DNA of 64,000 nucleotides from an uncultured Mollicutes bacterium (GCA_900539595.1 UQCQ01000001.1:172291-236290), one strand, 5' to 3'. Numbered from the stretch's first letter, positions 2,501 through 36,786 are shown. Numbers and translations: made by a program. The notes: generated from the sequence alone by a model not told the origin.

Positions 2501-3901
2501 TTATTTCAAATCAAGCCGTTCCTCGTAAAACTCATCTAACGAATAAGTGATGGGTGCCCGTTTTTTTGCTTCGGGTGTAAATCCATTGCGGGAAATGTAT
2601 CCTAAACGATAAAAGGGAAGGGGGGATTGCAAGGTCTGCTTCTCCTTTTCGTGAATCGTGTCCATGCCAATTGGATCCTTCGTGTATTTGCATTCATAAG
2701 AAGCAAAGCCATTCTTATCTTGGGTAACCACGTCAAATTGAAGGTTCTTTTTATTCTTCGCATCATTGAAGCTATAAGTTCCAATCTGAAAGAACGGGGG
2801 TTTGATTTCACCCGCCTTGTTTTTGCGAATCAAGAAATCCTTGCTCACTCTTTCAAAGGCTTTTGGAAGGTAACATTTTTCAAAATCCGGCTCGACCATC
2901 TCTTGATAGAAAAGGTCTTTACCCATGAAGGAAATGGATGATCCGTTGGAAAAAATATAACGGAAATAAAACCGAAGCAAGTTATCGTCAAAGTCGTAAT
3001 AAGTCAGTTTCTTATTTTGTGAATCGTTAATCGGGGAAACCTTCGTCAAGAAATGCAAGCCAACCCCTTTGGACAAAGCATATTCGGGGCGGGAATCCTT
3101 GCCCAACGCCGCAACCAAATCGCTAAATTTATGCTTTCCAACAGCTACAAGGTTAAGAACGCTATTTAAGGAAGCGACCTTCGTTCCTTCGCTTTCAATC
3201 ATTTCTTGGCATAAAAGCGTCATGGTGGAGGTATCTACGCCAAAGCAATCTTTGATATTTTCTTCTACGCTTTTTGATGGATTCACCAAGGATAACGCAT
3301 AAGGGAGTCCGCCAAAAACGGCATAGGCTTTGAATTTCTCTTCTGGTGAATAATGAGGAAAGAATTTTGCGGCGTCATAGTAATCGAATTCATGAATTTC
3401 TTGAATAAGGTCAAAATGGCCATGCAGCGGAGAGGAACGATCCACGATGTTCTGCATCAAATCGCAATAAGACCCGGAAAGAATAAGCTTTAAATGCAAA
3501 TCATCGCCTTTCCTTAAGTCGATTAATCGAGCCAAGCTGGCGTCCACCCCATCATCCCCGCCTAGCGGAAGATAAGAAAACTCATCAATCACGAAAATGA
3601 TTTTTTGATCCTTTGCAGCAAGAAAAATAGCGTCGAACAAATCGTCGTAACTGGAAAAGGTGGTATACGCAGGCAAGCCCAATACCCTTTTGGATTCTTT
3701 TTCTAATAGGGAAAGATTGATAGAGGGCAATACCTTTTTGCATTCGCAATGGAGAATTATCCCTTCTTCTCCTTCCAGGGCTTTTTTGATGATTTCTGTT
3801 TTGCCAACGCGTCGACGGCCAAAAATCATCATCGCCTTGTATGCGTCGCCCGCCATCAACTCTTTCAGCTTTCGAATCTCTTCTTTTCTTCCTACAAACA
3901 T
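2501..3901 (-). CDS. AAA+ ATPase of the so-called archaeal ATPase family (DUF234-type ATP-binding protein)
   Basis: Walker A FGRRRVGKTEII and Walker B-like IFVIDEFSYL. The start is reassigned to MFVGRKEE (RBS GGAG at -7); the ORF's first ATG is at 3994. Confidence 0.6.
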   Translation of the reverse strand: MFVGRKEEIRKLKELMAGDAYKAMMIFGRRRVGKTEIIKKALEGEEGIILHCECKKVLPSINLSLLEKESKRVLGLPAYTTFSSYDDLFDAIFLAAKDQKIIFVIDEFSYLPLGGDDGVDASLARLIDLRKGDDLHLKLILSGSYCDLMQNIVDRSSPLHGHFDLIQEIHEFDYYDAAKFFPHYSPEEKFKAYAVFGGLPYALSLVNPSKSVEENIKDCFGVDTSTMTLLCQEMIESEGTKVASLNSVLNLVAVGKHKFSDLVAALGKDSRPEYALSKGVGLHFLTKVSPINDSQNKKLTYYDFDDNLLRFYFRYIFSNGSSISFMGKDLFYQEMVEPDFEKCYLPKAFERVSKDFLIRKNKAGEIKPPFFQIGTYSFNDAKNKKNLQFDVVTQDKNGFASYECKYTKDPIGMDTIHEKEKQTLQSPLPFYRLGYISRNGFTPEAKKRAPITYSLDEFYEERLDLK

Positions 3902-4071
3902 ATCAATCTCCAGTAGTATTTTAACATAAATTTTTTTGGGACAAATATTTTTGTGTAAAAATTTATAGAGAAAAGCATGCTTATCAATTAACACAAATCA
4001 ATTTATGATAAATGAATTTGTGCTATTTTATAAATCGTTAATCTTAGCATCAAGCCAATGACCTAAAATAG

Positions 4072-5256
4072 CTAATGATAAGAGTCCTTAATGAAGCCGC
4101 AAGGGTCGATAGCGATACCATTTTCAAACAATTTCTTATATGGTTCGAACACTTTGTGCGGTTGAGCCAGAATTAACACGTCCGAACGTCTTATCGCCTC
4201 TTCAATGGGGACATTAATAATGCCTTCTATCATCTCAACATGGGAATTCGGTTCACACCCAATGACGTCAAAGCCATCTTCCGTCAATTTTTTTGCAATA
4301 ACAAGGCCGCTAGAATTACGTAAATCTCCAATATTCGCTTTATAACTCAGTCCAAACACCCCGATTGTTTTACCCTTTCTTGCGATGCATAGTCTTTCCG
4401 CTTCCTCCGCAACGAGAACCGGTTTCTTATCATTTATCGTTCTCGCCATAGAAAGCAAACCGACATCGTCACCATAACGATTAATCAAAAACAATGGGTC
4501 CACAGGAATGCAATGGCCGCCTACGCCGCTGCCCGGGTTTGGAACCTTAATACGTGGATGTTTATTTATTTTGTTAATCAAGGCAAATGGGTCTATCCCC
4601 TCTTTTTCCGCAATAAATCCCACCTGATTTGCAAACGCCAAATCGACATCCCTCGCCGCATTTTGAAGGAGTTTCACCAATTCGGCTTCTTCAAACGAAC
4701 AAACGTCGATATCGGATAGGCTGATTTTAGAATAAAGGGATTTTGATCTCCTTAAAGCCACGGGGTCGTCGGACCCAATCACGCGGGCGTTGTTCTTAAT
4801 TTCCGCCATCACGTTTCCTGGCAAAATCGTTTCGGGGCAATACGCGAAACAACCTTCAAAGCCCAAACTCGAAAGCATCTTTTTTATTCGTTTCCCAGTT
4901 CCAACAGGAACGGTGCTTTCAAGAATAAGCAACGTGTCTTTTTTCAATATTCCAGCAACATCTTTTAATGCGCCTGTAACGCTAGATAAATCAGGTGTTC
5001 CATCGAGTTTCGTCGGCGTTTGAACGGCAATAACAATGCGGTCGCACTCCTTCGGTTTGTCCACATATGAAATCCGACGCGAATTTTCTTTCAGCAAGGC
5101 ATCGACGTCGGGTTCGCCATATAGAAAAGATCCGTCGATTAGTGATTGAAGACGCGAAACATTCTTCTCAACGACAATAACCTCCGCGCATTGAGAAAAG
5201 GCAGCGGCCAGCGGAAGTCCAATATAACCAGCACCAATGATTTCAATTTTTTCCAT
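4072..5256 (-). CDS. UDP-N-acetyl-D-mannosamine / UDP-sugar 6-dehydrogenase family (WecC/Cap5O-like)
   Basis: N-terminal Rossmann IEIIGAGYIGLPLAAAF. The catalytic Cys region GGHCIPVDP and overall length are typical of nucleotide-sugar dehydrogenases. It overlaps the upstream epimerase-containing gene by 14 bp. Confidence 0.7.
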   Translation of the reverse strand: MEKIEIIGAGYIGLPLAAAFSQCAEVIVVEKNVSRLQSLIDGSFLYGEPDVDALLKENSRRISYVDKPKECDRIVIAVQTPTKLDGTPDLSSVTGALKDVAGILKKDTLLILESTVPVGTGKRIKKMLSSLGFEGCFAYCPETILPGNVMAEIKNNARVIGSDDPVALRRSKSLYSKISLSDIDVCSFEEAELVKLLQNAARDVDLAFANQVGFIAEKEGIDPFALINKINKHPRIKVPNPGSGVGGHCIPVDPLFLINRYGDDVGLLSMARTINDKKPVLVAEEAERLCIARKGKTIGVFGLSYKANIGDLRNSSGLVIAKKLTEDGFDVIGCEPNSHVEMIEGIINVPIEEAIRRSDVLILAQPHKVFEPYKKLFENGIAIDPCGFIKDSYH

Positions 5257-8200
5257 ACACATGCTCCAAAATTACCGACGCGATTTTAGCTCCAGCGCCG
5301 CCTTTGCCATAACGATCATCTGGTTGAATAGTCCCCGACTTGATTAATTCATTCAGAAGCTTTGCCATGCCTTTTCCTGAAGGAGGGAACATGCACTTCC
5401 CCGCTCGTTCCGTTTTTTCGCGGACAATTAATGCGGGAATGCCAAGAAATAACGCTTCTTCTTCCACGCCGCCAGAATCCGTTATGACGGCAATAGAAGA
5501 CGATAGTTTCCTTTGAAACTCTTGTGGCTCCAACGGATTGGTAAGCGTTAGATTCGGAATGTTCTTCAGTTTTTGCGCTGCGGCAACAATCACGGGATTG
5601 GGGTGAACGGGGAACAAAAACTGCACGCGTGGATTCAATTGGCAGCATTCCCTTATTTCGGAAAAAATATTTGTCAAAAAAGGGAGGTTTTCCTTCCGAT
5701 GAATGGTAATAAGAACACCCTGCCTCGATTCGGAAACAACATTTTGTCTCAAATAATCAACGAATGTATTACCGGTAACAATCACGCCGCGTGCGCCTTC
5801 TCTTATCAGGTTTTCTTCTTCCTTGCTTGATGGGGCGAAATTCAAAGCGGCTTCTTTGCTGATTCTTTTTCGAATAATTTCTTCAGGAAAAGGATTCGAT
5901 TCATCGAAACTACGCAAACCGGCTTCCACATAATAGAGAGGAACGCCAAGCAGCAGTGACAGCTTGGCACCAGACAATGCGGATGAAGTATCACCCTGAA
6001 CACAGATATAAGAAGGGGCGAACGGCAAGACTCGCATAGTATCTTCGGCCCATTTTTCGGATATCTTGTCAAAATCTCCTTGTCGCAGCTTAACGAAACA
6101 ATGCGTATCAATCCCACCTTTCATTAGTATCTTCGTTGGAAGACCATCATGTTGATGCGTATCAAGAACATAAAAGGGTGCCTCTCTTTGTTGCAATGAT
6201 TCTAGAATCGGAAGCATCTTGATCGCTTCGGGGCGGGTTCCAAGAACAAATAAGCCTGGATGCCGATCCATGGTAAAAAGCAATTTCTCTTGCTCTTTTT
6301 CATAGGAATACAAAGATGCAATCGCATAGGCCCGCTCCGTAAGGGCATTTGTCCTTTGAACATCACGGTTCAACATTTCTATCAAGTTGGCGGCCTCTTC
6401 AACATTGGAATAAAACGCCATAGAGTCTCCAAACGTGTATTGAATGCGATTTAGGCGAGAGCTAACGACGCACGGAAGCCTCGACAAAGCGGCCTCATAA
6501 ACGCACCTCCCAAAAGTTTCCTGCAAAGAAGTGCAAAGATAAAAATCCGACTGATCGAGAGCCGTCTTCAACTGCAGCTGACCAACAGAGCCCTTAAAGA
6601 AAATGAAATCACCAGCGTCCTCTATCATGGATTCGTAAATTGTCTTCTCGTCGATTGTCCCATAGATGCTAAGGGTCGCATCATATCCACGTTTTCGTAG
6701 CAAAGAGACAATTTCTTTGGATTCGGGAAGATTTTTTTGAAGTTTAGTGCTGGAAATCATGACGATTCGCACTCTACGTCCTCCAGTCTCCCTTTCTTTT
6801 GGTTTTGAATCAAAGATTTGAGATATGCCTCTTGATATTACTTTGATGCGATTAGGATTCGCACCATAGTGTTTGGTTATCACTTCTTTGTCTTCTTCGT
6901 TTGGAACAACAATCGCCATGACATTTTGGTAAACCCTTCTTTCGGCGGCAAAATATTCTTTAGGCGGAAACTCGCCAGACCTTAAATAATCGCAACCGTT
7001 AAACATTGGGAATACTATGGCTTTCGCAAGATTTGCGTCATTCAGTCCAAAAGCTTTGGATGTATGAACAACAACAATTTCATCATAATTTTCCAAAAGA
7101 CCATTAATTCTCTCTTCGTAATGAGCGATCGAGTCAATCCTGCGGGAAAATTTCCCTTCTCGACAAGGATTTGGTAGAAATACGTGATGACGAAAAGCAT
7201 TGATATCTCCGTAATCACTTCTTGGCGAACGCAGGCAATAAAAGTCTAAATCATAGTGTCCTTTGGCGGCTTTCACTATTGACGAAACCATGCTGGATCC
7301 CCCGCCATCAGGGACCCCATAGAACTTGGAAGTAATGAGAGCAACTCGTTGACGCTCCCAAAAACGTAAATATTTTTGGAATATCGCCTCGAAGTCATAA
7401 CCATCAACCTCTTCATCTCGAGGAAGTTCTTCAAGAGGTGCCGCCAACACGGCTGCCGCGATTTCAGACGGCGAATCACCACAAATAACCCCCCTCTTGC
7501 CATTTATAATTTCACTTAATGCTCCAGAATCGGTTGAAACAATATAGGTTCTCGAAGCTATAGCCTCCAAAATCGTTCTTCCCATTCCCTCGCAATGAAT
7601 ATAACGGCCTCCAGGAACCTCATATTCAAGGTTCCCAGAGCATTGCAAATAAATATCTGCGCCTACAATATAAGGAAGTACTTTCTCGTGTTCTTTTTTT
7701 CCAAGAAAATAGATGCGCTCATTTTTTTCGTATTTTAGTTTTAGTTCCGAAAAGTCTGGGCCATCGCCGATAATGGTAAGGTCGTATGGTTTTGGAAGCA
7801 GATTAAAAGCAGTTAAAAGAAGCCCCATGCGCTTATAAGGCTCAAATCTAGCGCTGCACACAAGGTGAATTCTTTGCTCTTTAAAAAGCTTCTTCTTTAT
7901 TGCCTTTTTATCCAGCGATTCAATGGAAGAAAGTGGTACGCCTCCCCTACAGAGGCGGAGCATCGACCCTCGAATCCCCAATTCTTCCAATCGTTTTTCC
8001 GTAAAACAACTATTGGTAATGAGAATATCGACATTGCGATTAAGCGTTTCGATCCAATACCTTTGCCTATTTTCAAGTGGTTTGGTTAAATCCAATAACG
8101 GGGCCGAAGGGATTTCGTTACCACCCGTCCGATAGAGAACCCTGGCCTTTGGAAAAAACGATTTGATTTCATCCATTTCCTCAATCCAATGGCCAGAGTT

Positions 8201-9127
8201 AAAGAACACGCGAATATCGCGATGCCCAATTACGGTTTTCAAATCGGCGTACTTAGTCGAGCACCCCATGTTTGACTCGACAATTGTATTTTCGCCGTTC
8301 CTATGTGAAACAACATAAACGTCGCCTTTGTCCCAAAGAAACTTTTTAAGATACTTTGCATGGGTTTCCATGCCACCAATATCGTCAAGACTTGATTCGA
8401 TGTAGAGAAGATAAACGGGTGGCAATAGATTTAATATACTTAACGCGTTACTAACCCCATTTTCGAATGAGGCGGCAGTCACGAACTTCGCGGCGTAGCC
8501 CACTTCCGCCGGGCATCCGGCCATCGCAACGGAATTTGGAAACGATTGAATCATCTCAAAATCATTCGGGCCGTCACCAAAGACCGCAACTTCTTCTTTG
8601 GACCATCCTTCTTTATTGCAAATTAATTCAATCGCGGAAGATTTGGAAACACCTTTTCTAAGGCAAACATCCACCCCGGATTTTTGCCAGCGAACCACAT
8701 GGTATTGCTTTGGAGAAGCGCCTGTTTCATAGACCAGAGCATAAATGTTTCCTTCCGGTCGGGAGCAATCCGTCGTCACAAACCCTTTCTTTAAAAGTGA
8801 CTTTTGAATTTCTTCATTCTTTGCATGAATACCAGAATCGGCATAGGCGGCGAGCCAATTATCATTTAAGACAGCCGAAATTGGCCTTTCCGATATTTTT
8901 GTTTCTCGCTTGTATATAACAGCACCATCAAACAAAACATAGTAGTCGAATTCAAAATCCCCCAGAGCGGCTTTTGCCATACCCATATTTCGAATGCTGC
9001 ACACTCCCAGTTTAATGCCACGTTTTTGCAAGGATCTAAGATCGTTTTGCAAGGATGGCGGCATCCCCAATCCTTTGCTCTTGCAAACCAGCGTATTACC
9101 AATATCAAAGAAACAGGCTTTAATCAT
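5243..9127 (-). CDS. 1294-aa multidomain glycan-synthesis protein. Domain order: HAD-like hydrolase, GT4 glycosyltransferase, a second GT4-like domain, then a non-hydrolysing UDP-GlcNAc 2-epimerase (WecB-like) C-terminal domain.
   Basis: N-terminus MIKACFFDIGNTLV (HAD-like motif I). GGMETH and EGMGRTILEAIA are GT4 signatures. The C-terminal ~370 aa carry GTRPEAIKM, VEAGLRS, TGNT, HRKEN, DSGGVEEEA and TER motifs colinear with WecB. It is a single uninterrupted ORF. Confidence 0.65.
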   Translation of the reverse strand: MIKACFFDIGNTLVCKSKGLGMPPSLQNDLRSLQKRGIKLGVCSIRNMGMAKAALGDFEFDYYVLFDGAVIYKRETKISERPISAVLNDNWLAAYADSGIHAKNEEIQKSLLKKGFVTTDCSRPEGNIYALVYETGASPKQYHVVRWQKSGVDVCLRKGVSKSSAIELICNKEGWSKEEVAVFGDGPNDFEMIQSFPNSVAMAGCPAEVGYAAKFVTAASFENGVSNALSILNLLPPVYLLYIESSLDDIGGMETHAKYLKKFLWDKGDVYVVSHRNGENTIVESNMGCSTKYADLKTVIGHRDIRVFFNSGHWIEEMDEIKSFFPKARVLYRTGGNEIPSAPLLDLTKPLENRQRYWIETLNRNVDILITNSCFTEKRLEELGIRGSMLRLCRGGVPLSSIESLDKKAIKKKLFKEQRIHLVCSARFEPYKRMGLLLTAFNLLPKPYDLTIIGDGPDFSELKLKYEKNERIYFLGKKEHEKVLPYIVGADIYLQCSGNLEYEVPGGRYIHCEGMGRTILEAIASRTYIVSTDSGALSEIINGKRGVICGDSPSEIAAAVLAAPLEELPRDEEVDGYDFEAIFQKYLRFWERQRVALITSKFYGVPDGGGSSMVSSIVKAAKGHYDLDFYCLRSPRSDYGDINAFRHHVFLPNPCREGKFSRRIDSIAHYEERINGLLENYDEIVVVHTSKAFGLNDANLAKAIVFPMFNGCDYLRSGEFPPKEYFAAERRVYQNVMAIVVPNEEDKEVITKHYGANPNRIKVISRGISQIFDSKPKERETGGRRVRIVMISSTKLQKNLPESKEIVSLLRKRGYDATLSIYGTIDEKTIYESMIEDAGDFIFFKGSVGQLQLKTALDQSDFYLCTSLQETFGRCVYEAALSRLPCVVSSRLNRIQYTFGDSMAFYSNVEEAANLIEMLNRDVQRTNALTERAYAIASLYSYEKEQEKLLFTMDRHPGLFVLGTRPEAIKMLPILESLQQREAPFYVLDTHQHDGLPTKILMKGGIDTHCFVKLRQGDFDKISEKWAEDTMRVLPFAPSYICVQGDTSSALSGAKLSLLLGVPLYYVEAGLRSFDESNPFPEEIIRKRISKEAALNFAPSSKEEENLIREGARGVIVTGNTFVDYLRQNVVSESRQGVLITIHRKENLPFLTNIFSEIRECCQLNPRVQFLFPVHPNPVIVAAAQKLKNIPNLTLTNPLEPQEFQRKLSSSIAVITDSGGVEEEALFLGIPALIVREKTERAGKCMFPPSGKGMAKLLNELIKSGTIQPDDRYGKGGAGAKIASVILEHVYGKN

Positions 9128-9842
9128 TGTCGAAAGCCTCTTTCATTAAACAACAACGGTAACCATGCGTCTTTAAAGCCTTAACAAGGTCAATGAACAA
9201 ATTTGCAATCCCATAGCCGCAATATCTTCTTTCATCGATTATGTTTTTATCAATAGAACGGTATTCCTGTCGTGACAATTGGTCCTTTAGTGTTCTAGTC
9301 AGTTGGTAATCGAATGAATTGAAGGCAAGGTGAATCGGATGAAATACAAAAACCAAATTATCCGCATTTTTTGCAGCATTCATAACCACATTAACGTCAA
9401 AGGGCAGACCTGCTTTGATAAATGCGCCGTCTTCAAAGAAAACCGGCATCTCGATACAATTCTCCTCAACGCGAATGGGCAACGGCTTCAGCAAAGACAA
9501 AACATTTGATGTTACCGTTATCCCAGTCATATTCATAAAAGAGCCGAAAGCCGGTTCTGGGGCGTGGTACAAATGGCATCGTACTATTCTTTTTTCCGCC
9601 GGAATATTTTTGAGTGAATTCGCAATCTCTTTCACAGAACCCCCATGGCTAGAACCAAGCATGAAATTCGGGTGCCATTCCAACGAAGACAAATGGTTTT
9701 TACAATACAAAAGAACACGCTCTGACTTATGAGTTTGGAAAAAAGTAATTGGAACATTCGCGTCCGCCACAATTGTTAGCGCTTCGCCAATAACAGCTTC
9801 GCTCGCCCAGTCTAAATCGATGGTTATATAAGCTTTATTCAT
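9120..9842 (-). CDS. Hypothetical protein, possibly a divergent polysaccharide deacetylase-like enzyme
   Basis: 240-aa ORF translationally coupled on both sides (8-bp and 4-bp overlaps). It shows weak NodB-like motifs (ITIDLDW, H..H). The assignment is speculative. Confidence 0.35.
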   Translation of the reverse strand: MNKAYITIDLDWASEAVIGEALTIVADANVPITFFQTHKSERVLLYCKNHLSSLEWHPNFMLGSSHGGSVKEIANSLKNIPAEKRIVRCHLYHAPEPAFGSFMNMTGITVTSNVLSLLKPLPIRVEENCIEMPVFFEDGAFIKAGLPFDVNVVMNAAKNADNLVFVFHPIHLAFNSFDYQLTRTLKDQLSRQEYRSIDKNIIDERRYCGYGIANLFIDLVKALKTHGYRCCLMKEAFDND

Positions 9843-10747
9843 GATAGTTTATGAAAGCGATCAAATTGAGAAGCATCGATTCCAAGTTCCTCTTTTAACT
9901 CATCCATACTCTCGTATTCCCATATACTCCGCGAGATCACCTTTGTTCTAACGCCATTCACGTCTTTAAACGCTTCAATTCTCCCCGCATGTGACAGATT
10001 AACCATCGAGTCTTCCATGGTTTTATTGTCCTTGAACGCCAACTCAATTCCAGACCCTTGACACATCTCGTTGATTTTTTCGCAAATTGAAGCGTACCTT
10101 TCATCCGAAATTGAATAAATTTCATCTTTAGCCGGATCGTTGTATGTCATGTATTGATAGAACTTCCATTTTGTAATCGGATATTCCCTTTGATGAGATA
10201 AGACCATGGCAACAACATCAAGAAGACCATCGTAATTTACAGGCGTAACAACAGAATGTAGTTTGATGTCGAACCCCCGTTCTTTGATGGATTTAATTCT
10301 TTTTTTGAAGCGTTCCAAATATTGAGTGTGTTGTCCATAGTTTCTCCCAAGTCTAGTGAGAATATTGTCGTCAACTGAATCAACGGTGATTGTAATACGG
10401 TCCACGACTCCAACGAGCTTATCAAGCACCCAATCCTCCAAAAGCACTGCGTTAGTTAAAAGTTCGATGCGGAGATTGCTCTCTTTGTTTTTTGGGTATT
10501 TATAGCGTTTGATGAAATCGATTAAAGAAAGAAAGTCAGAAACTTTATTCCCTCCAATGAAGAGCGGTTCTCCCCCGGACAGCGTAAGTTTTCTAACATT
10601 GAGGCGATACAAAGCTTCTACGGCTTTCTTTTTGTTTTCAAGCGACAGTTCAGACGCAACGGATGCCGGTGAACAATCACGAAAGCAGTATCCACAATTC
10701 AATACACACAAAGGCGTTAGCATCCAATAAACGGCATACTGATCCAT
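9839..10747 (-). CDS. Radical SAM enzyme
   Basis: CVLNCGYC (CxxxCxxC) at residues 14-21 and GGEPLF glycine-rich SAM motif. No obvious SPASM cysteine cluster. It is the first gene of the glycan operon. Confidence 0.7.
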   Translation of the reverse strand: MDQYAVYWMLTPLCVLNCGYCFRDCSPASVASELSLENKKKAVEALYRLNVRKLTLSGGEPLFIGGNKVSDFLSLIDFIKRYKYPKNKESNLRIELLTNAVLLEDWVLDKLVGVVDRITITVDSVDDNILTRLGRNYGQHTQYLERFKKRIKSIKERGFDIKLHSVVTPVNYDGLLDVVAMVLSHQREYPITKWKFYQYMTYNDPAKDEIYSISDERYASICEKINEMCQGSGIELAFKDNKTMEDSMVNLSHAGRIEAFKDVNGVRTKVISRSIWEYESMDELKEELGIDASQFDRFHKLS

Positions 10748-10942
10748 TCGTTCTCCTTATCAATTACTTCCGTTTAGGTGGGAAATATTGGCTTTAATTG
10801 TTTTTGATTTTATCAGTGTAACAAAAAGGAGAAAATGTTTTTATTTTCGTTGCGTAAAAATCAAAAACCGCAATCGACTTTTTGAGTTGCTACAAAACGT
10901 AAATTACCGGCATGACGTGAACGGGTAGTTCAATCACCCGTT

Positions 10943-11512
10943 TTATAAATTGATGTAATTTCGTTTTGCTTTGAATTTCGTCTCGGAGTCATGATCAAAT
11001 TCCTCTCCAGGCTTATCGAGACGATTTTTAATATCCGTACCCTTCAGAATATCAAGGAGTGGAATCATATAGTCGCCCTGTATTCCAAGCTCATGGTCCG
11101 GGAATTTGAAGAGAATCGCTACTAGGAACCTGGCGTCATCCTTTTTGCCGTCCCATTCTACTTCAACATCATCTTCCACAAGCGTTATCCCTTCAATTCT
11201 ATCCTTGATATTTACATCGATTTGCTCGACGTTTTGGAGGGCTGACGTCGCCTCGCTTTCTTTAATTTCCTTAACGAAAAACCTAGGATGGTCATCGTCT
11301 TGACTTCCAAACAAGGGATAGGGGCTATAGTCGTAATCAATCATGACCACGGAATCTTCGAGAAACAACTCAACCCTTCCGTAAACGGTTCCATCCCCAA
11401 ATTTGTCCAAGGGGTCGTGTCGTATTTTGCTCAACTTTTTCCCTATCAAGCTTTTAAGCAAAGATTTTTCTTTGTCGCTTAGACACAAATTGATCATATC
11501 AAGTTTAGCCAT
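10943..11512 (-). CDS. Hypothetical acidic protein (189 aa), a candidate partner of the upstream DinJ-like antitoxin
   Basis: ORF with strongly acidic composition. It lies 45 bp downstream of the antitoxin-like gene on the same strand. No recognisable RelE/YafQ motifs. Confidence 0.45.
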   Translation of the reverse strand: MAKLDMINLCLSDKEKSLLKSLIGKKLSKIRHDPLDKFGDGTVYGRVELFLEDSVVMIDYDYSPYPLFGSQDDDHPRFFVKEIKESEATSALQNVEQIDVNIKDRIEGITLVEDDVEVEWDGKKDDARFLVAILFKFPDHELGIQGDYMIPLLDILKGTDIKNRLDKPGEEFDHDSETKFKAKRNYINL

Positions 11513-11557
11513 CTATTCCCGTTGTATTCCTCGATTAAGCGACGTCGCCCTTAAAAC

Positions 11558-11812
11558 TCACTTAGCCAATTCCTCATAAACTTTGCCGTGCTTCTTGTCC
11601 GACTTCTCCGAAAGCTCCATCAAGGTCTTTCTATCAAGATATTGAATATCGGTGCTTTTAGTAACTTTGAAAGGAATGCTCTGCTCTCTGATAGACTGTT
11701 TGATGAACATATTGAAGGCCGCGTTCATTGTGAGTCCAAGCTCCGAGAAGAGCTTCTCCGCCTTCACCTTGTCATCCGCATCCATTCTGATGGTTACGTT
11801 TACGCTTGCCAT
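11558..11812 (-). CDS. DinJ/RelB-family antitoxin (ribbon-helix-helix)
   Basis: MASVNVTIRMDADDKVKAEKLFSELGLTMNAAFNMFIKQSIREQSIPF aligns motif-for-motif with E. coli DinJ (V.aRiDedLK..A..vl..mGLT......i.L..v.re..lPF). Confidence 0.65.
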   Translation of the reverse strand: MASVNVTIRMDADDKVKAEKLFSELGLTMNAAFNMFIKQSIREQSIPFKVTKSTDIQYLDRKTLMELSEKSDKKHGKVYEELAK

Positions 11813-12239
11813 AAATTGTCTCCTTGTTTTGGAATATTATATCAGAAATCTAAAGTAATAGAAGGCAAAAAATGTGCTATATATGTGCAAATAAACATTT
11901 GTAGTTTTTTCTCGCGTGGATAAAAAAGAATAAGAGGCAATCCGCATTACCTCACCTTTTCAATAAAGTCAGTGGGAAAACTCGACACGACGAGAAAAAC
12001 GGGCGATTCATTCTTCGTTTTGTCTTTGTTTAGCTACTTGTTCAGCCGTCTTTAATGTTTCTATGTATCGCTTGAGCCGTCCCGTGAGATATTTTACAAG
12101 AAGTTTGAACATTGCTTTGGGGGAACCGGTGAACCAAGATGAATTTTTCTACCCATTATGGCTCATTTTCTTTTCTGTCCGTATCCTTCATCAGGAACCA
12201 TTAGGAACCTTGCTGAATTGCCGATGCGGACGAATTGCG

Positions 12240-12780
12240 GACCATTTAAGCGTCCACGATGATGGCCCTATAAGTTCCTTCCTCGGTAATGGCTTCCCCG
12301 GCTTTGTAGTCATAGGCCTCGCCGTTTCTAGTGACGACGATGGTCTTTTTTTCGCCTGGGGCGATAGTGACCGGATCGTTGGTGATGTCACCGTCTGCTA
12401 CGTTCATATCGAAGGCGACAGTCTTGTCGATCACGATGGTGAAGGAGGTCTTGTTGCCATAGGCGTCCTGAACGGTGATGGGGTCGTGACCATTGACGGC
12501 CTAACCGAAGAGGGAACCGTCGAGGTCTATAAGGGCGGCCAGAAGATTGCCTACAGCCTCGGCGACGAGATCAAGGACTACGGCCACTACGAAGTCGTCG
12601 TGACCGATGCCTTGGGCAACTCCAGGACCTACGCCTTCACTCTCCAGTTCCAGATGAACGCCTGGGCAATCAATCACCCTCATCGCCGTTGGCCTAGCCG
12701 CCGCCATCGGTGTCACTGCAACCATCGTTCCGAAACGCAAACGCGTCTTCAAGAAGCGTGGCTAAGACCTTATTGGAGGG
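12240..12780. pseudogene. GC-rich remnants of a repeat-domain cell-surface protein gene, present on both strands and with a frameshifted C-terminal TM anchor
   Basis: The minus strand (12246-12434) encodes ...GEAYDYKAGEAITEEGTYRAIIVDA. The plus strand (12483-12660) encodes LTEEGTVEVYKGGQKIAYSLGDEIKDYGHYEVVVTDALGNSRTYAFTLQFQ. A shifted frame gives ITLIAVGLAAAIGVTATIVPKRKRVFKKRG* after a stop. The 323-aa ORF 12063-13034 is a chimera of sense and antisense pieces. Confidence 0.35.
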
Positions 12781-13490
12781 GGAAAGTGCCCCGTCTTGCT
12801 AAACAGGATAAGGAGGTGGCTCAATCTGCGCCACTTCCCCTCCGGACCAGGGTTCGGCAGTGGGAAACCCACATGACGAGAACACAAACAGAAATGGACC
12901 TAATTGAAGAAGATTATTGTCTGATGGCAGAAACGGTTCTGGCAATGGTATATTTCTGCCATCTATCCAGGACGTTAATAATTCGGTCTCTAAAACTATT
13001 TGAGATTGGTAAAACCCTGCAGCTCAACTCCTGAGCTTCCAAACGAAGAAGGTAGAACTGAACAGCTCGCCATGTCCTTAAAGCGTCTGGTTTATTTCCT
13101 TCTTCGAAACATTGAATCTCTTGCCGATGGCCGAGGCCTTCTGGTTGACAGCCACGGGCAAAGTATCAAAAAAACGAAAGTCCACCCTCTATGAAGAGAG
13201 GGTCATCGTTTATACATCAATGTCAACGAAGAGTTGTTTCTTCTTTTTCTTGAATTTGTTGATGATTGATATCTGCTTGTTTCGACGGCAGGTTGGACCA
13301 CATGTTTGGCACTGTATTTATTACGGCCGAGATTCATGTATCGCCTCTTTCTTTTTATTGGCACATTACTCCGACACCAAAAAATCACAAACTGACGGTG
13401 TGATTCAAGGACGATTTCTCAGATTACTTTCAGGGACGAAAAAAGAAGTCCACAAAGGATTTGATTGTAACGTTGGAGCTCTAGTTATGT

Positions 13491-14708
13491 TCAGTTGAAA
13501 TCCAGATTCTCTTGTTCCAGTTTGACATCGTGCTCAAGCATGTAGCGGATGGTTTCGTGGAATTCCTTGGCTTCTTCCTTGTGGAGCATTAGGCCAAGGC
13601 GCTTCTTGTCATTTTCAGAAAGATGCATGCATTCGGTTGCGTATTTCTCCAGTTCAGGGATGCCCATCATAAGAGGATGAACGTCAATACCCGTCTTCCT
13701 TCTTAGGTCAAGGAGGATGTTGAATCCACCCCAATCGATGTCACCGATGTGGTAGAAAGGCAAGGAAGGATTGAAATCATGAATCTTTTTTAAGAGTTCC
13801 CTCTTGATGGAATTGTGGTAGCCGGCGAGATAGATCACGATGGCATCTTTGCCTAGGTAGTAATAGTAGGTTGTGAGGTTCTCGATGGTGATGACTTTCT
13901 TCTTGGATATCGAAAGGATTTTCATCTCGCCGATTTCTTTGTCCGTCATAGAGAAATCATCATTCAGGGCATCAAGGTCAATAATCTGGCTGTTGATGGA
14001 AAATGACATCCCATACCGGAGATAGGCGAACAAAGGGTTCTTGACGATGCCGTGTTCGGCATAGACATCGTCGATTTTTTCATATTCCTCCCCCGAGAAT
14101 TCCTGGAAAATGCGTAGAATCTTGGTTTCGTTGCGCTGAAGGAGTTTGGAGTCGGAGAAATTTCTGGCCGAAAAGTTCCGCAGCAAGATTTCTTCATGCT
14201 GATTTTCGATGGCGCGGACGATGCTGACCTGTGTCTTCAAGTCATCCAAGTCTTTGTAATGGCTGAGGTGGGATTTATGGGCCTCAACCAAGCCAAGAAG
14301 AAACAGCAGATAGGATTTCTCCGTTGGCCCTGCTTCAGTATCGGACAGGCGGGACTGGATGAATTCCTTTTCAGAAGAGACGACATTGCTTTTCCTTTTG
14401 TGTCCGGTTAGCCGATACGCCTCATTCAGTTTCTTTTCGCTTTGGTTAAGCTCGATATGGTGTAGAAGTTTTGTCTTCCGGTCCCAGTCGAGGAGAACCA
14501 GGCCATCCTTTTCCAGAGATTTGGCGGCCTGATCGATGTCATCCCGGTATTTGTAGGAATCCTCTGCCATATATTCCGGCAGAGCCTTGTCTTTCCAGAC
14601 ATCAATTCGGATTTTCGTTTGTTTTGAATCCTCGGCTTCAAAGCCTCTTTCCCCGCCTTGGTGTTTGTCCAAAAGCCGGTTTAGGATGATGTTTTCATAA
14701 TCCTTCAT
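13491..14708 (-). CDS. jetD: Wadjet JetD (Toprim/DUF2220-type nuclease subunit)
   Basis: C-terminal Toprim-like FYHIGDIDWGGFNI. It is ~405 aa and the last gene of a four-gene operon following an SMC-like ATPase; its start overlaps the jetC stop by 4 bp. Confidence 0.7.
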   Translation of the reverse strand: MKDYENIILNRLLDKHQGGERGFEAEDSKQTKIRIDVWKDKALPEYMAEDSYKYRDDIDQAAKSLEKDGLVLLDWDRKTKLLHHIELNQSEKKLNEAYRLTGHKRKSNVVSSEKEFIQSRLSDTEAGPTEKSYLLFLLGLVEAHKSHLSHYKDLDDLKTQVSIVRAIENQHEEILLRNFSARNFSDSKLLQRNETKILRIFQEFSGEEYEKIDDVYAEHGIVKNPLFAYLRYGMSFSINSQIIDLDALNDDFSMTDKEIGEMKILSISKKKVITIENLTTYYYYLGKDAIVIYLAGYHNSIKRELLKKIHDFNPSLPFYHIGDIDWGGFNILLDLRRKTGIDVHPLMMGIPELEKYATECMHLSENDKKRLGLMLHKEEAKEFHETIRYMLEHDVKLEQENLDFN

Positions 14709-20615: not shown

Positions 20616-20933
20616 CTATTTAAGGCGTGCGGACGCATCGGAATTATTGTTTTCACTTGCGGAACTTTGTTCGTTCGCGTTGTTTATGGCTGTGCAAATT
20701 TTCTCTATTAGTCCCTTGAATCTATCAAAAATGATTTTGTCATTTTCCGTTAAATGTTCTTTGCCGATTACATTGATTTCAACTTGCTCATTGATTGGTA
20801 CTGATTTAAAGATAAAATCATATAAATCTTTACCAGTAACCGAGTGATCCTTTGAAATGGAAAACAATTTGCTTTCTTCTTCCATGACTACTAATTCTTC
20901 ATCAATACGTTTAATCTGTAATTGTTTTTTCAT
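20616..20933 (-). CDS. Hypothetical 105-aa protein translationally coupled to the upstream PHP-ATPase gene
   Basis: Its start overlaps the stop of the 815-aa gene by 23 bp. It has the same very low GC content and no recognisable motifs. Confidence 0.5.
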   Translation of the reverse strand: MKKQLQIKRIDEELVVMEEESKLFSISKDHSVTGKDLYDFIFKSVPINEQVEINVIGKEHLTENDKIIFDRFKGLIEKICTAINNANEQSSASENNNSDASARLK

Positions 20934-36701: not shown

Positions 36702-36786
36702 TGGTGCGGGCAACAGGACTTGAACCTGCACGGAGTTACCCATTAGATCCTAAGTCTAACGCGTCTGCCAATTTCGCCATGCCCGC
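36702..36786 (-). tRNA. tRNA-Leu (anticodon TAG)
   Basis: The reverse complement folds as a class II tRNA: acceptor GCGGGCA/TGCCCGC, anticodon stem TTAGA/TCTAA with loop CTTAGGA, a long variable arm, T-arm GCAGG-TTCAAGT-CCTGT, and CCA encoded. Confidence 0.8.

What the first reader, a model, noticed from the sequence alone, without database searches (positions are those of the whole stretch)
4072..10747. Glycan operon with a 1294-aa HAD-GT4-GT4-UDP-GlcNAc 2-epimerase megaprotein, a UDP-ManNAc-type dehydrogenase and a radical SAM enzyme
One uninterrupted ORF fuses four activities that are normally separate: a HAD-like hydrolase, two GT4-type glycosyltransferase modules, and a full WecB-type non-hydrolysing epimerase. 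All WecB motifs (GTRPEAIKM, VEAGLR, HRKEN, DSGG..EEA) are present in order. The downstream gene, overlapping by 14 bp, is a WecC/Cap5O-type dehydrogenase. The locus therefore appears to make UDP-ManNAc and UDP-ManNAcA and polymerise them, a teichuronic-acid or capsule-like polymer, on a single polypeptide. The operon is headed by a radical SAM gene (CVLNCGYC), and a 240-aa deacetylase-like protein is coupled by 4-bp and 8-bp overlaps. Radical SAM chemistry in a surface-polysaccharide operon suggests an unusual sugar modification such as epimerisation, C-methylation or dehydration.
Basis: partly seen in the sequence, partly recalled or inferred. Interest (0 to 1): 0.6.

Follow-up and report, generated by a model that had tools for sequence, protein, structure and literature searches.

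The report
Viperin-like radical SAM sugar cassette
The giant fused enzyme is real, but the operon looks like a compact, mobile pathway for a small modified sugar compound, led by a relative of the antiviral enzyme viperin, and it sits in an anti-phage defence island rather than being a capsule or cell-wall polymer locus.

Summary
Four co-directional, overlapping minus-strand genes encode a radical SAM enzyme, a WbmS-like hydrolase, a 1294-aa HAD-IIB/GT4/GT4/WecB-type epimerase fusion, and a WecC-like dehydrogenase. The fusion is not an artefact: independent assemblies carry the same ORF, three related lineages carry 1293–1300-aa versions, and most relatives encode the four parts as separate adjacent genes in the same order.

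The polymer interpretation is not supported. No initiating transferase, flippase, polymerase or membrane protein is present. The radical SAM enzyme is viperin-like by sequence and fold, but it misses the curated viperin cut-off, the conserved viperin tyrosine and the C-terminal RGG motif.

This enzyme defines a small, sharply separated family. In all 47 genome loci found, spanning many phyla, it sits next to the WbmS-like gene. Two GT4s, a HAD-IIB phosphatase and a second, interchangeable phosphatase are nearly always present. Epimerase, dehydrogenase and an MsbA-like exporter are frequent additions.

Best reading: an uncharacterised, horizontally mobile pathway that builds a de-N-acetylated glycoside on a phosphorylated acceptor, with a radical tailoring step. 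The window is from a gut Mollicutes/Enteromonas-type bacterium. There the cassette lies inside a ~36-kb defence island, which hints at a conflict role. The product and its function remain unknown.

The parts
9839..10747 (-). Viperin-like radical SAM enzyme (302 aa), first gene of the operon. It has C14/C18/C21 and SGGE57-60. Family-specific invariant residues are T55, H164 and H299. M248 stands where viperins have the conserved Tyr.
   Evidence: NCBIfam viperin_w_prok 104.7 bits, below the cut-off of 180. PADLOC pVip 3e-32 over the full length. By sequence, the 9 PDB hits of the single protein are all viperins or viperin-like enzymes; the family profile ranks the same 9 first, then MoaA. AF2 model pLDDT 95. 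Foldseek: 25 of the top 26 PDB hits are viperin or viperin-like chains, TM 0.64-0.82 (best 6q2p: 0.76/0.79). Residue mapping.
9120..9842 (-). WbmS-like predicted metal-dependent hydrolase/de-N-acetylase (240 aa). It overlaps the radical SAM gene by 4 bp.
   Evidence: PF22537 97.4 bits. PDB 3hft WbmS 1.8e-8. Adjacent to the radical SAM gene in 47/47 genome loci. Residues conserved in at least 93% of orthologs: D9, D11, H57, H66, H90, E137, D138, H168, H171.
5243..9127 (-). 1294-aa fusion protein, HAD-IIB / GT4a / GT4b / WecB-type epimerase. It overlaps the WbmS-like gene by 8 bp.
   Evidence: Uninterrupted ORF. Domains. The same ORF occurs in independent assemblies. Orthologs of 1293-1300 aa occur in L064, L065 and L005. 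Split orthologs in the same order occur in L001, L004, L010 and L011.
8423..9127 (-). HAD-IIB (Cof-type) phosphatase domain, residues ~1-235. Motif I reads D8-I-G-N-T12, so the second catalytic Asp is replaced by Gly. Motif IV (FGDGPND 183-189) is intact.
   Evidence: Hydrolase_3 93.5 bits and Cof subfamily 87.9 bits. Alignment of 47 HAD-IIB domains: every type-A copy has DxGNT and every type-B copy has DxDGT. Positions checked.
7334..8413 (-). GT4a glycosyltransferase module, residues ~239-598. The EX7E motif E513...E521 is intact.
   Evidence: Glycos_transf_1 and Glyco_trans_1_4 at 408-561. More than 60 positions are conserved in at least 93% of 48 orthologs. The only PDB sequence relative is PimB' (6e-7).
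6263..7333 (-). GT4b glycosyltransferase module, residues ~599-955. The EX7E motif E870...E878 is intact.
   Evidence: Glyco_transf_4 at 608-768. Scanned alone, this module hits Glycos_transf_1 at 182-335 of its 357 residues. Conserved residues. No PDB sequence relative. In type-B relatives this module carries the HAD-IIB domain at its C-terminus.
5243..6262 (-). Non-hydrolysing WecB-type UDP-GlcNAc 2-epimerase domain, residues 956-1294 plus the stop codon.
   Evidence: Epimerase_2 172.8 bits. TIGR00236 wecB 192.2 bits, just under its cut-off of 210.15. The 17 best PDB hits are all deposited as UDP-GlcNAc 2-epimerases. Residues conserved in at least 93% of orthologs: D1046, E1068, E1082/E1083, H1143, R1144, N1147, H1175, D1217-S-G-G, E1223/E1224.
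4072..5262 (-). WecC-like NDP-sugar 6-dehydrogenase (396 aa from the first ATG, 394 aa as called publicly). It overlaps the fusion gene by 20 or 14 bp. The catalytic Cys is C251, in GGHC.
   Evidence: Three UDPG_MGDP_dh domains. TIGR03026 295 bits, above its cut-off. UDP-ManNAc dehydrogenase PRK11064 266.7 bits, below its cut-off of 459. Gene call. Conserved residues.
10748..10942 (-). 195-bp upstream intergenic region with a Shine-Dalgarno sequence (AAGGAG) 6 nt before the radical SAM ATG. This is the presumed promoter region; no promoter was confidently identified.
   Evidence: Sequence read directly. The consensus promoter/terminator scan was uninformative, with fewer hits than in shuffled sequence. 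No Rfam element.

Best explanation
The operon is one version of a conserved, horizontally mobile biosynthetic cassette. It most likely makes a soluble or exported modified glycoside, not a surface polymer.

Proposed pathway. The enzyme families and intact active sites are shown; the substrates and the order of steps are inferred.
1. The WecB-type domain and the WecC-like dehydrogenase supply UDP-ManNAc and UDP-ManNAcA from UDP-GlcNAc.
2. The two retaining GT4 modules transfer sugars one after the other onto a phosphorylated acceptor. The GT-linked HAD-IIB domain then removes the phosphate. This is the logic of sucrose-phosphate synthase/phosphatase and of the MshA/BshA-type first steps.
3. The WbmS-like metal hydrolase removes an N-acetyl group to expose an amine, as MshB, BshB and BtrD do.
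4. The viperin-like radical SAM enzyme uses a 5'-deoxyadenosyl radical to tailor a phosphate-bearing sugar or nucleotide-sugar intermediate. The most likely chemistry is a viperin-type or AprD4-type dehydration, giving a deoxy or unsaturated sugar.

Relatives add a second phosphatase and often an MsbA-like ABC exporter. The second phosphatase is HAD_2, ComB-like or Y_phosphatase3, depending on the lineage. The 1294-aa protein is simply four consecutive, translationally coupled genes of this cassette that have fused into one.

In this gut Mollicutes genome and in several other Firmicutes, the cassette is cargo of defence islands or mobile elements. Its product may therefore act in conflict with phages or competitors (about 40% likely).
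For: Cassette conservation. The radical SAM family is a sharply separated island. Five full-length 50%-identity clusters score 350-435 bits, and the next full-length protein scores 133 bits. In 47 genome loci from Clostridia, Acholeplasma, Bacteroidota, Chlamydiae, Rickettsiales, Holosporales, Legionellaceae, Francisellaceae, Myxococcota, Gemmatimonadota, Planctomycetota and large sulfur bacteria, the component counts are:
- radical SAM plus WbmS-like: 47/47
- GT4a: 46/47; GT4b: 46/47
- HAD-IIB: 43/47
- second phosphatase: HAD_2 in 10/11 type-A loci, ComB-like in 34/36 type-B loci
- epimerase: 31/47; dehydrogenase: 25/47
- MsbA-like ABC exporter: 13/36 type-B loci

Fusions that link the parts functionally:
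- GT4b-HAD-IIB (~550 aa) in 32/36 type-B loci
- HAD-IIB-GT4a (609-619 aa) in L012 and L062
- HAD_2-radical SAM (496 aa) in L004
- the four-domain fusion in the window, L005, L064 and L065

Active sites are intact in both GT4s (EX7E), the epimerase, the dehydrogenase and the WbmS-like protein.

There is no polymer machinery and no membrane segment.

Viperin relationship.

Altered active site. Residues kept relative to mouse viperin: K120, K220, K247, R194, D182, SGGE. Residues changed relative to mouse viperin: Y302 to L/M in 52/52 members, N222 to an invariant His, and the C-terminal RGG...Y.W motif to (F/Y)-His.

Defence or mobile context:
- window: Wadjet, Type III RM, HKD-Snf2, PDC-S01/S19/S27 and a RelB antitoxin gene, with a tRNA at the island edge
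- L001: Type I RM, AAA_21, integrase
- L056: caspase-like genes, Type I RM, AAA_13
- L062: two serine recombinases; the contig is listed in IMG/VR
- L064: helicases, methyltransferases, PDDEXK ATPase
Against: - No product, acceptor or substrate is known. The step order and the radical SAM chemistry rest on analogy only.
- GT4 enzymes can also act on lipid-linked acceptors without having membrane segments, and an MsbA/PglK-type ABC protein could be a flippase rather than a small-molecule exporter.
- The window's HAD-IIB lacks the second catalytic Asp (DIGNT), and the window has none of the three alternative second phosphatases. The phosphatase logic is therefore weakest in this very locus.
- The census of 139 flanking ORFs, drawn mostly from type-B loci, shows few defence genes. 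A defence role is therefore not general.
- The closest relatives outside the family are solo viperin-like genes, so a nucleotide substrate cannot be excluded.
Confidence: 0.5

Rival explanations
1. One reading: a surface-polysaccharide operon (teichuronic-acid-like or capsule-like) in which the megaprotein makes UDP-ManNAc(A) and polymerises it, with the radical SAM enzyme adding an unusual sugar modification.
For: - WecB/WecC-type enzymes and GT4s are typical of ECA, Cap5/8 and teichuronic-acid loci. The weak NCBIfam hits of the GT4 modules are to TuaC, EpsE and VpsD.
- WbmS itself comes from an O-antigen locus.
- Some proteobacterial and chlamydial relatives carry an MsbA/glucan-exporter-like ABC gene.
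Against: - No initiating transferase, Wzx/Wzy, ABC-2 exporter, chain-length regulator or ligase lies in or beside the operon.
- All cassette proteins are soluble.
- The cassette is self-contained in very different genomic contexts.
- A HAD-IIB phosphatase always accompanies the GT4s and a second phosphatase nearly always does. Phosphatases have no obvious role in polymerisation.
- The dehydrogenase is absent from 22 of 47 loci.
- NCBI names for window proteins give the host as a Mollicutes / Ca. Enteromonas-type bacterium. From general knowledge, peptidoglycan-anchored teichuronic acid is implausible in such an organism; this was not checked here.
Confidence: 0.1
2. A membrane glycolipid or lipid-linked oligosaccharide pathway. 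The GT4s decorate a lipid acceptor (a diacylglycerol-, lipid A- or polyprenol-linked glycan), the deacetylase and radical SAM enzyme tailor it, and the MsbA/PglK-like ABC protein flips it across the membrane.
For: - An orthologous ABC_membrane+ABC_tran half-transporter sits next to 13 of 36 type-B cassettes. Its best NCBIfam hits are MsbA, glucan exporter, HepA and, more weakly, PglK.
- The closest solved relative of GT4a is PimB', which glycosylates a phosphatidylinositol mannoside.
- The GT4 modules give weak hits to glycolipid synthases (IagA/BgsA, Dgs, Mgs).
- The cassette is common in intracellular bacteria (Chlamydiae, Rickettsiales, Legionellaceae, Cardinium), where envelope glycolipids matter for host interaction.
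Against: - All ABC scores are far below the curated cut-offs.
- The exporter is missing from type-A cassettes, including the window.
- Two phosphatases per cassette, together with GT4-HAD-IIB fusions, fit a soluble phospho-acceptor better.
- No acyltransferase or lipid-handling gene is conserved in the cassette.
Confidence: 0.15
3. A canonical prokaryotic viperin (pVip) defence gene that makes ddhNTP chain terminators. The neighbouring sugar enzymes would be an unrelated operon, or would merely modify or detoxify the nucleotide.
For: - Best family matches are to viperin models over the full length.
- The predicted fold is viperin-like, and 25 of the 26 best PDB matches are viperin or viperin-like chains.
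- The gene lies in a defence island.
- Several basic residues that I recall as contacting the triphosphate in mouse viperin are retained (K120, K220, K247).
Against: - The score is well below the curated viperin cut-off (104.7 vs 180).
- The Tyr present in every viperin and viperin-like neighbour examined is L/M in all 52 family members. The C-terminal RGG...Y.W motif and the beta-8-loop base-recognition residues are absent. N222 is replaced by an invariant His.
- The gene is never solo. It is translationally coupled to the WbmS-like gene and linked to the GT4s in 46-47 of 47 loci, whereas the nearest outgroup member is solo.
Confidence: 0.08

Closest known systems
Viperin / prokaryotic viperins (pVips; ddhNTP synthases)
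   Same: - Radical SAM core (CxxxCxxC, SGGE).
- Same overall fold including the C-terminal extension (best match 6q2p, TM 0.76/0.79 over ~302 aligned columns).
- Shared motifs K-x-x-S (K220 region), W-K-x-x-Q (W246/K247/Q250), D182 and R194.
- Occurs in defence islands in some genomes.
   Different: - Scores below the curated viperin HMM cut-off.
- The conserved Tyr (mouse Y302) is L/M; N222 is an invariant His; the C-terminal RGG(K/I)Y.W is replaced by (F/Y)-His; the beta-8-loop residues C314/K319 are replaced by hydrophobic/Gly; there are extra loops after GGEP and before beta-4.
- Never solo or kinase-linked. It is always embedded in a glycosyltransferase/phosphatase/deacetylase cassette.
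Sugar-phosphate synthase/phosphatase pairs and GT4 + deacetylase thiol pathways (SPS-SPP; MshA-MshA2-MshB; BshA-BshB). This comparison rests on my own knowledge of those pathways.
   Same: A retaining GT4 is fused or adjacent to a HAD-IIB phosphatase and is followed by a de-N-acetylase. The GT4 modules give weak NCBIfam hits to BshA, MshA and GlcN-PG synthase.
   Different: - Two GT4s rather than one.
- The deacetylase is WbmS-like, not LmbE-type.
- A radical SAM enzyme and UDP-ManNAc(A) supply enzymes are added.
- No cysteine ligase is present.
- All hits are far below the equivalog cut-offs.
Aminoglycoside and nucleoside-antibiotic gene clusters that combine a GT, a deacetylase and a radical SAM enzyme (BtrM/BtrD/BtrN; the paromamine to lividamine route with AprD4; TunB/TunD/TunE; the KasQ epimerase). 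This comparison rests on my own knowledge.
   Same: The same enzyme logic: a UDP-HexNAc-dependent GT, N-deacetylation, radical SAM redox or dehydration tailoring, a phosphatase and sometimes an exporter. A WecB-type epimerase feeds the pathway.
   Different: - No 2-deoxystreptamine/inositol cyclase, aminotransferase or resistance genes.
- The radical SAM enzyme is viperin-like, not BtrN/AprD4 (twitch/SPASM) type.
- No sequence-level orthology was shown. The sequences of those enzymes were not available to test.
UDP-ManNAcA supply modules of ECA, S. aureus Cap5/8 and teichuronic acid (WecB/MnaA/Cap5P plus WecC/Cap5O)
   Same: The epimerase domain and the dehydrogenase are clear homologues with conserved catalytic residues.
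   Different: Both score below their equivalog cut-offs. They are optional in the cassette (31 and 25 of 47 loci). Here the epimerase is fused to two GT4s and a HAD domain. No WecA/WecG/Wzx/Wzy-type partners are present.

Membership tests
Viperin / pVip (ddhNTP synthase) | Radical SAM CxxxCxxC cluster motif and GGE SAM-binding motif | tested here: met
   C14/C18/C21 and SGGE57-60 are invariant in 52 family members.
Viperin / pVip (ddhNTP synthase) | Viperin fold including the C-terminal extension | tested here: met
   AF2 model pLDDT 95.2. Of the top 26 Foldseek PDB hits, 25 are viperin or viperin-like chains; the best is 6q2p at E 2.7e-17, TM 0.76/0.79.
Viperin / pVip (ddhNTP synthase) | Score at or above the curated cut-off of NCBIfam NF038283 (180 bits) | tested here: not met
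   104.7 bits. A true pVip among the neighbours (P0120) scores 251.8 bits.
Viperin / pVip (ddhNTP synthase) | Conserved tyrosine proposed to deliver the proton/electron (mouse Y302; 'conserved tyrosine' in PMC9642334) | tested here: not met
   The window has M248. The 52 family members have L (30) or M (22). All three structure-derived viperin sequences and all nine viperin-like neighbours have Y.
Viperin / pVip (ddhNTP synthase) | C-terminal R-G-G-(K/I/V)-Y-x-W motif (mouse R347...W353). That it binds the triphosphate is from my own memory and was not verified here. | tested here: not met
   The window ends ...DRFHKLS. The family consensus is (F/Y)-H, with His299 in 50/52 members. The motif is present in mouse and T. 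virens viperins and in pVip P0120.
Viperin / pVip (ddhNTP synthase) | Beta-8-loop base-recognition residues (mouse C314/K319, or the Asn of promiscuous pVips; bioRxiv 10.1101/2023.09.13.557418) | tested here: not met
   The aligned positions are F260/G265 in the window and M/F/Y plus G/T/S across the family. The alignment in this loop is less certain.
Viperin / pVip (ddhNTP synthase) | Produces ddhCTP, ddhUTP or ddhGTP and protects against phage | not testable with these tools
   Requires enzymology and phage assays.
Non-hydrolysing UDP-GlcNAc 2-epimerase (WecB/MnaA) | Epimerase_2 domain, curated equivalog score and catalytic residues | tested here: inconclusive
   PF02350 172.8 bits, above its cut-off. 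TIGR00236 192.2 bits, just under 210.15. The 17 best PDB hits are all deposited as UDP-GlcNAc 2-epimerases. Conserved D1046, E1068, E1082/3, H1143 and H1175. Activity was not tested.
UDP-ManNAc 6-dehydrogenase (WecC/Cap5O) | Three-domain NDP-sugar dehydrogenase with catalytic Cys, plus the equivalog score | tested here: inconclusive
   TIGR03026 295.3 bits, above 189.8, and GGHC with C251: met. PRK11064 266.7 bits, below 459: not met. Substrate was not tested.
GT4 retaining glycosyltransferase | GT-B Glycos_transf_1 domain with the EX7E motif | tested here: met
   Two modules: E513...E521 and E870...E878, conserved in 48 and 49 orthologs respectively.
Pfam PF20706 'GT4 in conflict systems' | Score at or above the gathering threshold (26 bits) | tested here: not met
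   16.8-19.3 bits in the window. Only 4 of 48 GT4b orthologs hit at all, and only locally around the EX7E motif.
HAD-IIB (Cof-type) phosphatase | Hydrolase_3 domain with catalytic motif I DxDx(T/V) | tested here: not met
   The domain score is met (93.5 bits). Motif I, however, reads D8-I-G10-N-T, so the general acid/base Asp is missing. This holds for all type-A copies; type-B copies have DxDGT.
Capsule / teichuronic acid / O-antigen type polymer locus | An initiating phosphoglycosyltransferase, a flippase or ABC exporter, and a polymerase or chain-length regulator in the locus | tested here: not met
   None was found among the operon or its neighbours by Pfam, NCBIfam or PADLOC. No transmembrane segment in any cassette protein.
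WbmS-like polysaccharide-deacetylase-fold family (PF22537) | Score above the gathering threshold and similarity to the WbmS structure | tested here: met
   97.4 bits against a threshold of 27. PDB 3hft 1.8e-8. The biochemical activity of this family is itself uncharacterised, to my knowledge.

The most novel reading that the evidence does not exclude
A branch of the viperin family has been repurposed. Instead of making free chain-terminator nucleotides, it acts as a tailoring dehydratase inside a mobile 6-9-gene pathway. One possible reaction converts a UDP-linked or glycosidic amino-uronic acid to a 4-deoxy-4,5-unsaturated sugar, the pyranose analogue of the 3'-deoxy-3',4'-didehydro product of viperin.

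The end product would be a new aminoglycoside-like or nucleoside-like antimetabolite. It would act as a 'chemical defence' against phages or competitors in gut Firmicutes and Mollicutes. In Chlamydiae, Rickettsiales, Legionellales and other intracellular bacteria it would be exported.
Probability: 0.25. Interest if true: 0.85.

Novelty: new variant of a known kind. Interest (0 to 1): 0.62.

Why it matters
Viperins are one of the few immune enzymes shared between bacteria and humans, and their only known chemistry is NTP to ddhNTP. Here a sharply separated viperin-like family has kept the fold and half of the residues I recall as phosphate-binding, but has systematically replaced the proposed catalytic Tyr and the triphosphate-binding tail. 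It is locked into a glycosyltransferase/phosphatase/deacetylase cassette across more than ten phyla.

If this family performs new radical chemistry on a sugar or nucleotide-sugar, it extends the catalytic repertoire of the viperin fold. It also points to an unknown natural product made by gut commensals and by many obligate intracellular bacteria. Both claims can be tested directly: the operon is only 6.7 kb and all its proteins are soluble.

The result also corrects an annotation risk. Public records call these genes 'MoaA', 'AslB' or simply 'UDP-GlcNAc 2-epimerase', and a reader sees a capsule locus.

Tried and rejected
- PADLOC on all cassette proteins. Only the radical SAM enzyme matches (pVip models); the rest match no known defence system.
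- Pfam 'GT4-conflict' membership. Rejected: scores are sub-threshold and only 4 of 48 orthologs hit.
- The 189-aa ORF upstream (10943-11512) as the missing HAD_2. Rejected: there is no similarity. It sits next to an 84-aa RelB antitoxin gene.
- Search of the window for HAD_2, ComB-like or Smr genes, the cassette ABC exporter, or the L005 accessory genes. None lies near the operon.
- The 394-aa 'members' listed in the megaprotein's cluster. These might have been split alleles, but they are the neighbouring dehydrogenase.
- Promoter/terminator consensus scan and Rfam. Nothing informative.
- Viral contigs. There was a single hit, a mobile-element-like contig carrying two serine recombinases, so the cassette is not a phage feature.
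- Literature. The eLife 2020 conflict-systems paper does not cover it.
- The Rickettsia buchneri 'aminoglycoside (AGAB)' array. This lead could not be checked because the paper is not held. R. buchneri was not among the 47 loci.
- The megaprotein could not be modelled by AlphaFold because it exceeds the 1200-aa limit. Domain integrity was judged from the split orthologs instead.
- The defence-island association is not general. The census of 139 flanking ORFs is dominated by the ComB-like phosphatase and ABC exporter, not by defence genes.

Full report
**1. What is in the sequence**

On the minus strand there are four tightly packed ORFs:
- a 302-aa radical SAM protein (9839-10747; CVLNCGYC at 14-21);
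- a 240-aa protein (9120-9842; 4-bp overlap);
- an uninterrupted 1294-aa ORF (5243-9127; 8-bp overlap);
- a 396-aa dehydrogenase (4072-5262). Its overlap is 20 bp from the first ATG or 14 bp from the second. Public gene calls use the second.

Pfam and NCBIfam give the megaprotein the order HAD-IIB (Hydrolase_3/Cof), GT4, GT4, Epimerase_2. The 240-aa protein belongs to the WbmS-like family (PF22537; PDB 3hft). The dehydrogenase is an NDP-sugar dehydrogenase whose best equivalog is UDP-ManNAc dehydrogenase, although it scores below that model's cut-off.

**2. The fusion is real and its origin is clear**

The exact 1294-aa protein is on record from several independent assemblies. Two gut-metagenome contigs show the same operon. 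NCBI names for window proteins point to a gut 'Mollicutes bacterium' or 'Candidatus Enteromonas sp.'.

Three more distant lineages, with radical SAM identity of 68-75%, carry 1293-, 1299- and 1300-aa orthologs. In most other relatives the four parts are separate, overlapping genes in exactly the same order, HAD-IIB, GT4a, GT4b, epimerase. The megaprotein therefore arose when stop codons were lost between translationally coupled genes.

Other lineages show different fusions of the same parts:
- HAD-IIB-GT4a, 609-619 aa;
- GT4b-HAD-IIB, about 550 aa;
- HAD_2-radical SAM, 496 aa.

These recurrent fusions argue that the parts work on a common set of intermediates.

**3. The radical SAM enzyme is viperin-like but not a canonical viperin**

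Its best matches in NCBIfam and PADLOC are the prokaryotic viperin models, over the full length. The score, however, is 104.7 bits against a curated cut-off of 180. By sequence, all nine PDB hits of the single protein are viperins or viperin-like enzymes. The family profile ranks the same nine first, at about 1e-15, followed by MoaA at 1.5e-11. An AlphaFold model built from 52 family members is confident (pLDDT 95). Of its 26 best Foldseek matches in the PDB, 25 are viperin or viperin-like chains. The best is mouse viperin with CTP bound (6q2p, TM 0.76/0.79, about 302 aligned columns).

A full HMMER scan of 1.84 billion representatives shows the family as a small island. Five full-length clusters score 350-435 bits, and the next full-length protein scores 133 bits. 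The ten nearest outsiders all hit the viperin model best, and only one of them passes its cut-off.

I rebuilt the mouse viperin sequence from PDB alignments. I checked the numbering against the Cys314 and Lys319 cited in bioRxiv 10.1101/2023.09.13.557418. I then aligned it with two T. virens viperin-like enzymes, nine neighbours and the 52 family members.
- Retained: the cluster and SAM motifs, K120 (K/R), D182, R194, K220, W246-K247, Q250 and S301.
- Changed family-wide:
  - Y302, the 'conserved tyrosine' of the proposed mechanism (PMC9642334), is L or M in 52/52 members (M248 in the window). All viperins and neighbours examined keep Y.
  - N222 becomes an invariant His (H164).
  - N122 becomes an invariant Thr.
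  - N77 and H79 become Y and M.
  - The beta-8-loop base-recognition positions become hydrophobic or Gly.
  - The C-terminal R-G-G-x-Y-x-W motif is replaced by (F/Y)-His299.

The enzyme therefore has the viperin scaffold and part of its phosphate-binding set. It fails several defining features of a ddhNTP synthase. The changes are invariant rather than degenerate, which points to a different but conserved substrate and chemistry.

**4. The operon is one version of a conserved, mobile cassette**

A scan of one genome per species found 47 loci. Their hosts include:
- Firmicutes and relatives: Clostridia and Acholeplasma;
- Bacteroidota: Alistipes, Capnocytophaga, Chitinophagaceae and Cardinium;
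- intracellular and symbiotic lineages: many Chlamydiae, Rickettsia/Rickettsiaceae, Holosporales, Caedibacter/Paracaedibacter, Legionellaceae, Francisellaceae and Mycoavidus;
- others: Thiomargarita/Parabeggiatoa, Myxococcota, Longimicrobium and Phycisphaerales.

tblastn and blastp with the window's domains give two gene orders.
- Type A (11 loci, plus the window and its relatives): [Smr]-HAD_2-radical SAM-WbmS-HAD-IIB-GT4a-GT4b-epimerase-[dehydrogenase].
- Type B (36 loci): [ABC]-dehydrogenase-epimerase-GT4a-GT4b::HAD-IIB-radical SAM-WbmS, followed by a convergent ComB-like phosphatase and often an ABC exporter.

| Component | Loci |
|---|---|
| Radical SAM + WbmS-like | 47/47 |
| GT4a | 46/47 |
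| GT4b | 46/47 |
| HAD-IIB | 43/47 |
| HAD_2 (type A) | 10/11 |
| ComB-like phosphatase (type B) | 34/36 |
| Epimerase | 31/47 |
| Dehydrogenase | 25/47 |
| MsbA-like ABC exporter (type B) | 13/36 |

For HAD-IIB, the four loci without a detected copy have short or interrupted GT4b ORFs. For the ComB-like phosphatase, the two exceptions are cut by contig ends.

The Mollicutes-type fused lineage has a third kind of second phosphatase. A Y_phosphatase3 gene is coupled after the dehydrogenase in L005, L064 and L065. The window's own lineage lacks it.

A Pfam census of 139 flanking ORFs confirms that the ComB-like phosphatase (22 hits) and the ABC_membrane/ABC_tran pair (12 each) are the commonest neighbours. 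No polysaccharide-export family is enriched.

Catalytic motifs are conserved across phyla in both GT4 modules (EX7E), the epimerase, the dehydrogenase (GGHC) and the WbmS-like protein, which has a set of invariant Asp and His residues. One detail stands out. All type-A HAD-IIB domains, including the window's, have motif I as DxGNT, so the second Asp is lost. Type-B copies have the canonical DxDGT, and the type-A HAD_2 genes are canonical.

**5. What the cassette is not**

There is no initiating transferase, flippase, polymerase or chain-length regulator in or next to the operon. No cassette protein has a hydrophobic segment compatible with a membrane helix. The cassette is complete and self-contained in unrelated surroundings. 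The dehydrogenase and epimerase are dispensable in a third to a half of the loci. This does not fit a teichuronic-acid or capsule polymerisation locus.

**6. Most likely mechanism**

The enzyme families and their intact active sites are shown. The substrates and the order of steps are inferred. The pathway analogies in this section come from my own knowledge and were not tested by sequence.
- The WecB-type domain and the WecC-like dehydrogenase supply UDP-ManNAc(A).
- The two retaining GT4s build a di-glycosyl unit on a phosphorylated acceptor.
- The GT-linked HAD-IIB removes the phosphate. GT4 + HAD-IIB is the architecture of sucrose-phosphate synthase/phosphatase and related compatible-solute pathways.
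- The WbmS-like hydrolase removes an N-acetyl group. GT4 + deacetylase is the logic of mycothiol, bacillithiol and paromamine synthesis.
- The viperin-like enzyme performs a radical, probably dehydrating, tailoring step on a phosphate-bearing sugar or nucleotide-sugar. The closest functional analogies are viperin itself and AprD4.

A canonical HAD_2 phosphatase is fused to the radical SAM enzyme in one lineage. A second phosphatase recurs through non-orthologous replacement. Together these suggest that the radical SAM substrate or product is itself a phosphate ester that must be dephosphorylated. The MsbA-like exporter in type-B cassettes suggests that the product leaves the cytoplasm in those organisms.

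**7. Biological role**

In the window the operon lies in the middle of a ~36-kb defence island:
- PDC-S01 (1023-2312)
- PDC-S27-like ATPase (2501-3994)
- RelB antitoxin gene (11558-11812)
- Wadjet JetABCD (13491-19939)
- Schlafen-type helicase (23520-25286)
- HKD+Snf2 (26015-29296)
- Type III RM (29948-35028)
- PDC-S19 (35200-36159)
- a tRNA at 36705-36786, at the island edge

Other type-A copies sit beside Type I RM, AAA_21 and an integrase (L001). Another sits beside helicases, methyltransferases and PDDEXK ATPases (L064). A third is next to two large serine recombinases, on a contig listed in IMG/VR. One type-B copy sits between caspase-like genes and a Type I RM (L056).

Most type-B copies, however, have housekeeping neighbours plus the exporter. 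A conflict role, antiviral or antibacterial through a small molecule, is therefore plausible at about 40% but not established. Alternatives are a host-interaction or stress-protectant metabolite, or a membrane glycolipid.

**8. Novelty**

None of my ten literature searches found this cassette. Public annotations are generic, for example 'MoaA', 'AslB' or 'radical SAM protein', and 'UDP-GlcNAc 2-epimerase' for the megaprotein.

The individual enzyme families are all known, and the megaprotein itself is an ordinary gene fusion. Two things are new:
- a distinct viperin-like subfamily with a re-tooled active site;
- its obligate linkage to a glycosyltransferase/phosphatase/deacetylase pathway in more than ten phyla.

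I rate the finding as a new variant of a known kind, with moderately high interest. The central uncertainty is the identity of the product.

Noticed in passing
window 1-36800: The finding sits inside a ~36-kb defence island. Its members are PDC-S01 (1023-2312), a PDC-S27-like ATPase_2+DUF234 gene (2501-3994), Wadjet type I JetD/C/B/A (13491-19939), an 815-aa ATPase with a Ppl/Gabija-like C-terminus (20911-23358), a Schlafen-group-3-type helicase (23520-25286), HKD+Snf2 (26015-29296), DUF4391 (29299-30006), Type III RM Mod (29948-31849) and Res (31846-35028), and PDC-S19/DUF3644 (35200-36159). A tRNA at 36705-36786 marks the edge, and housekeeping genes follow.
   Followed up: partly
window 10943-11812 (minus strand): An 84-aa RelB-family antitoxin gene (11558-11812) is followed by a 189-aa ORF with no family match (10943-11512). 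This may be a toxin-antitoxin pair with an unclassified toxin. The same pair precedes the cassette in an independent gut-metagenome contig (L059).
   Followed up: partly
window 11813-13490: About 1.7 kb between the RelB gene and jetD has no recognisable gene. The only long ORF (12063-13034, plus strand, 323 aa) has an odd Gly/Asp/Val-rich then Arg/His-rich composition and no Pfam hit. It could be a decayed gene or a non-coding spacer.
   Followed up: no
L001 9091-9426; L009 6-341; L011 9070-9420: In some Clostridia a 111-aa Smr-domain gene is translationally coupled to the start of the cassette (Smr-HAD_2-radical SAM...). Smr nucleases act on stalled ribosomes. If the product is a translation inhibitor, this gene could provide self-protection. 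That idea is pure speculation.
   Followed up: no
L005 2189-4701; L065 3178-5654: In two fused-type lineages, two proteins with no family match (about 361 and 463-476 aa) are coupled immediately upstream of the radical SAM gene; the second overlaps its start in L005. They may be lineage-specific accessory or regulatory components of the cassette.
   Followed up: no
L051 (Candidatus Pacearchaeota archaeon contig, 7.4 kb): A DPANN-archaeon MAG contig carries a type-A cassette whose matches to the window's proteins are nearly the same as those of the Thiomargarita and Parabeggiatoa loci (L039, L040). This could be a binning error or a recent transfer.
   Followed up: no
L047 and L053: In a Deltaproteobacteria MAG and a Chlamydiae MAG the radical SAM gene is split into two tblastn segments, and the GT4 genes are fragmented as well. 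The cassette appears to be decaying into pseudogenes in some genomes.
   Followed up: no
window 40516-41871 and 1023-2312: The window holds two DUF4143/AAA_14 ATPase genes (PDC-S01-type). A homologue also flanks the cassette in L005 (24% identity to the 1023-2312 copy).
   Followed up: no
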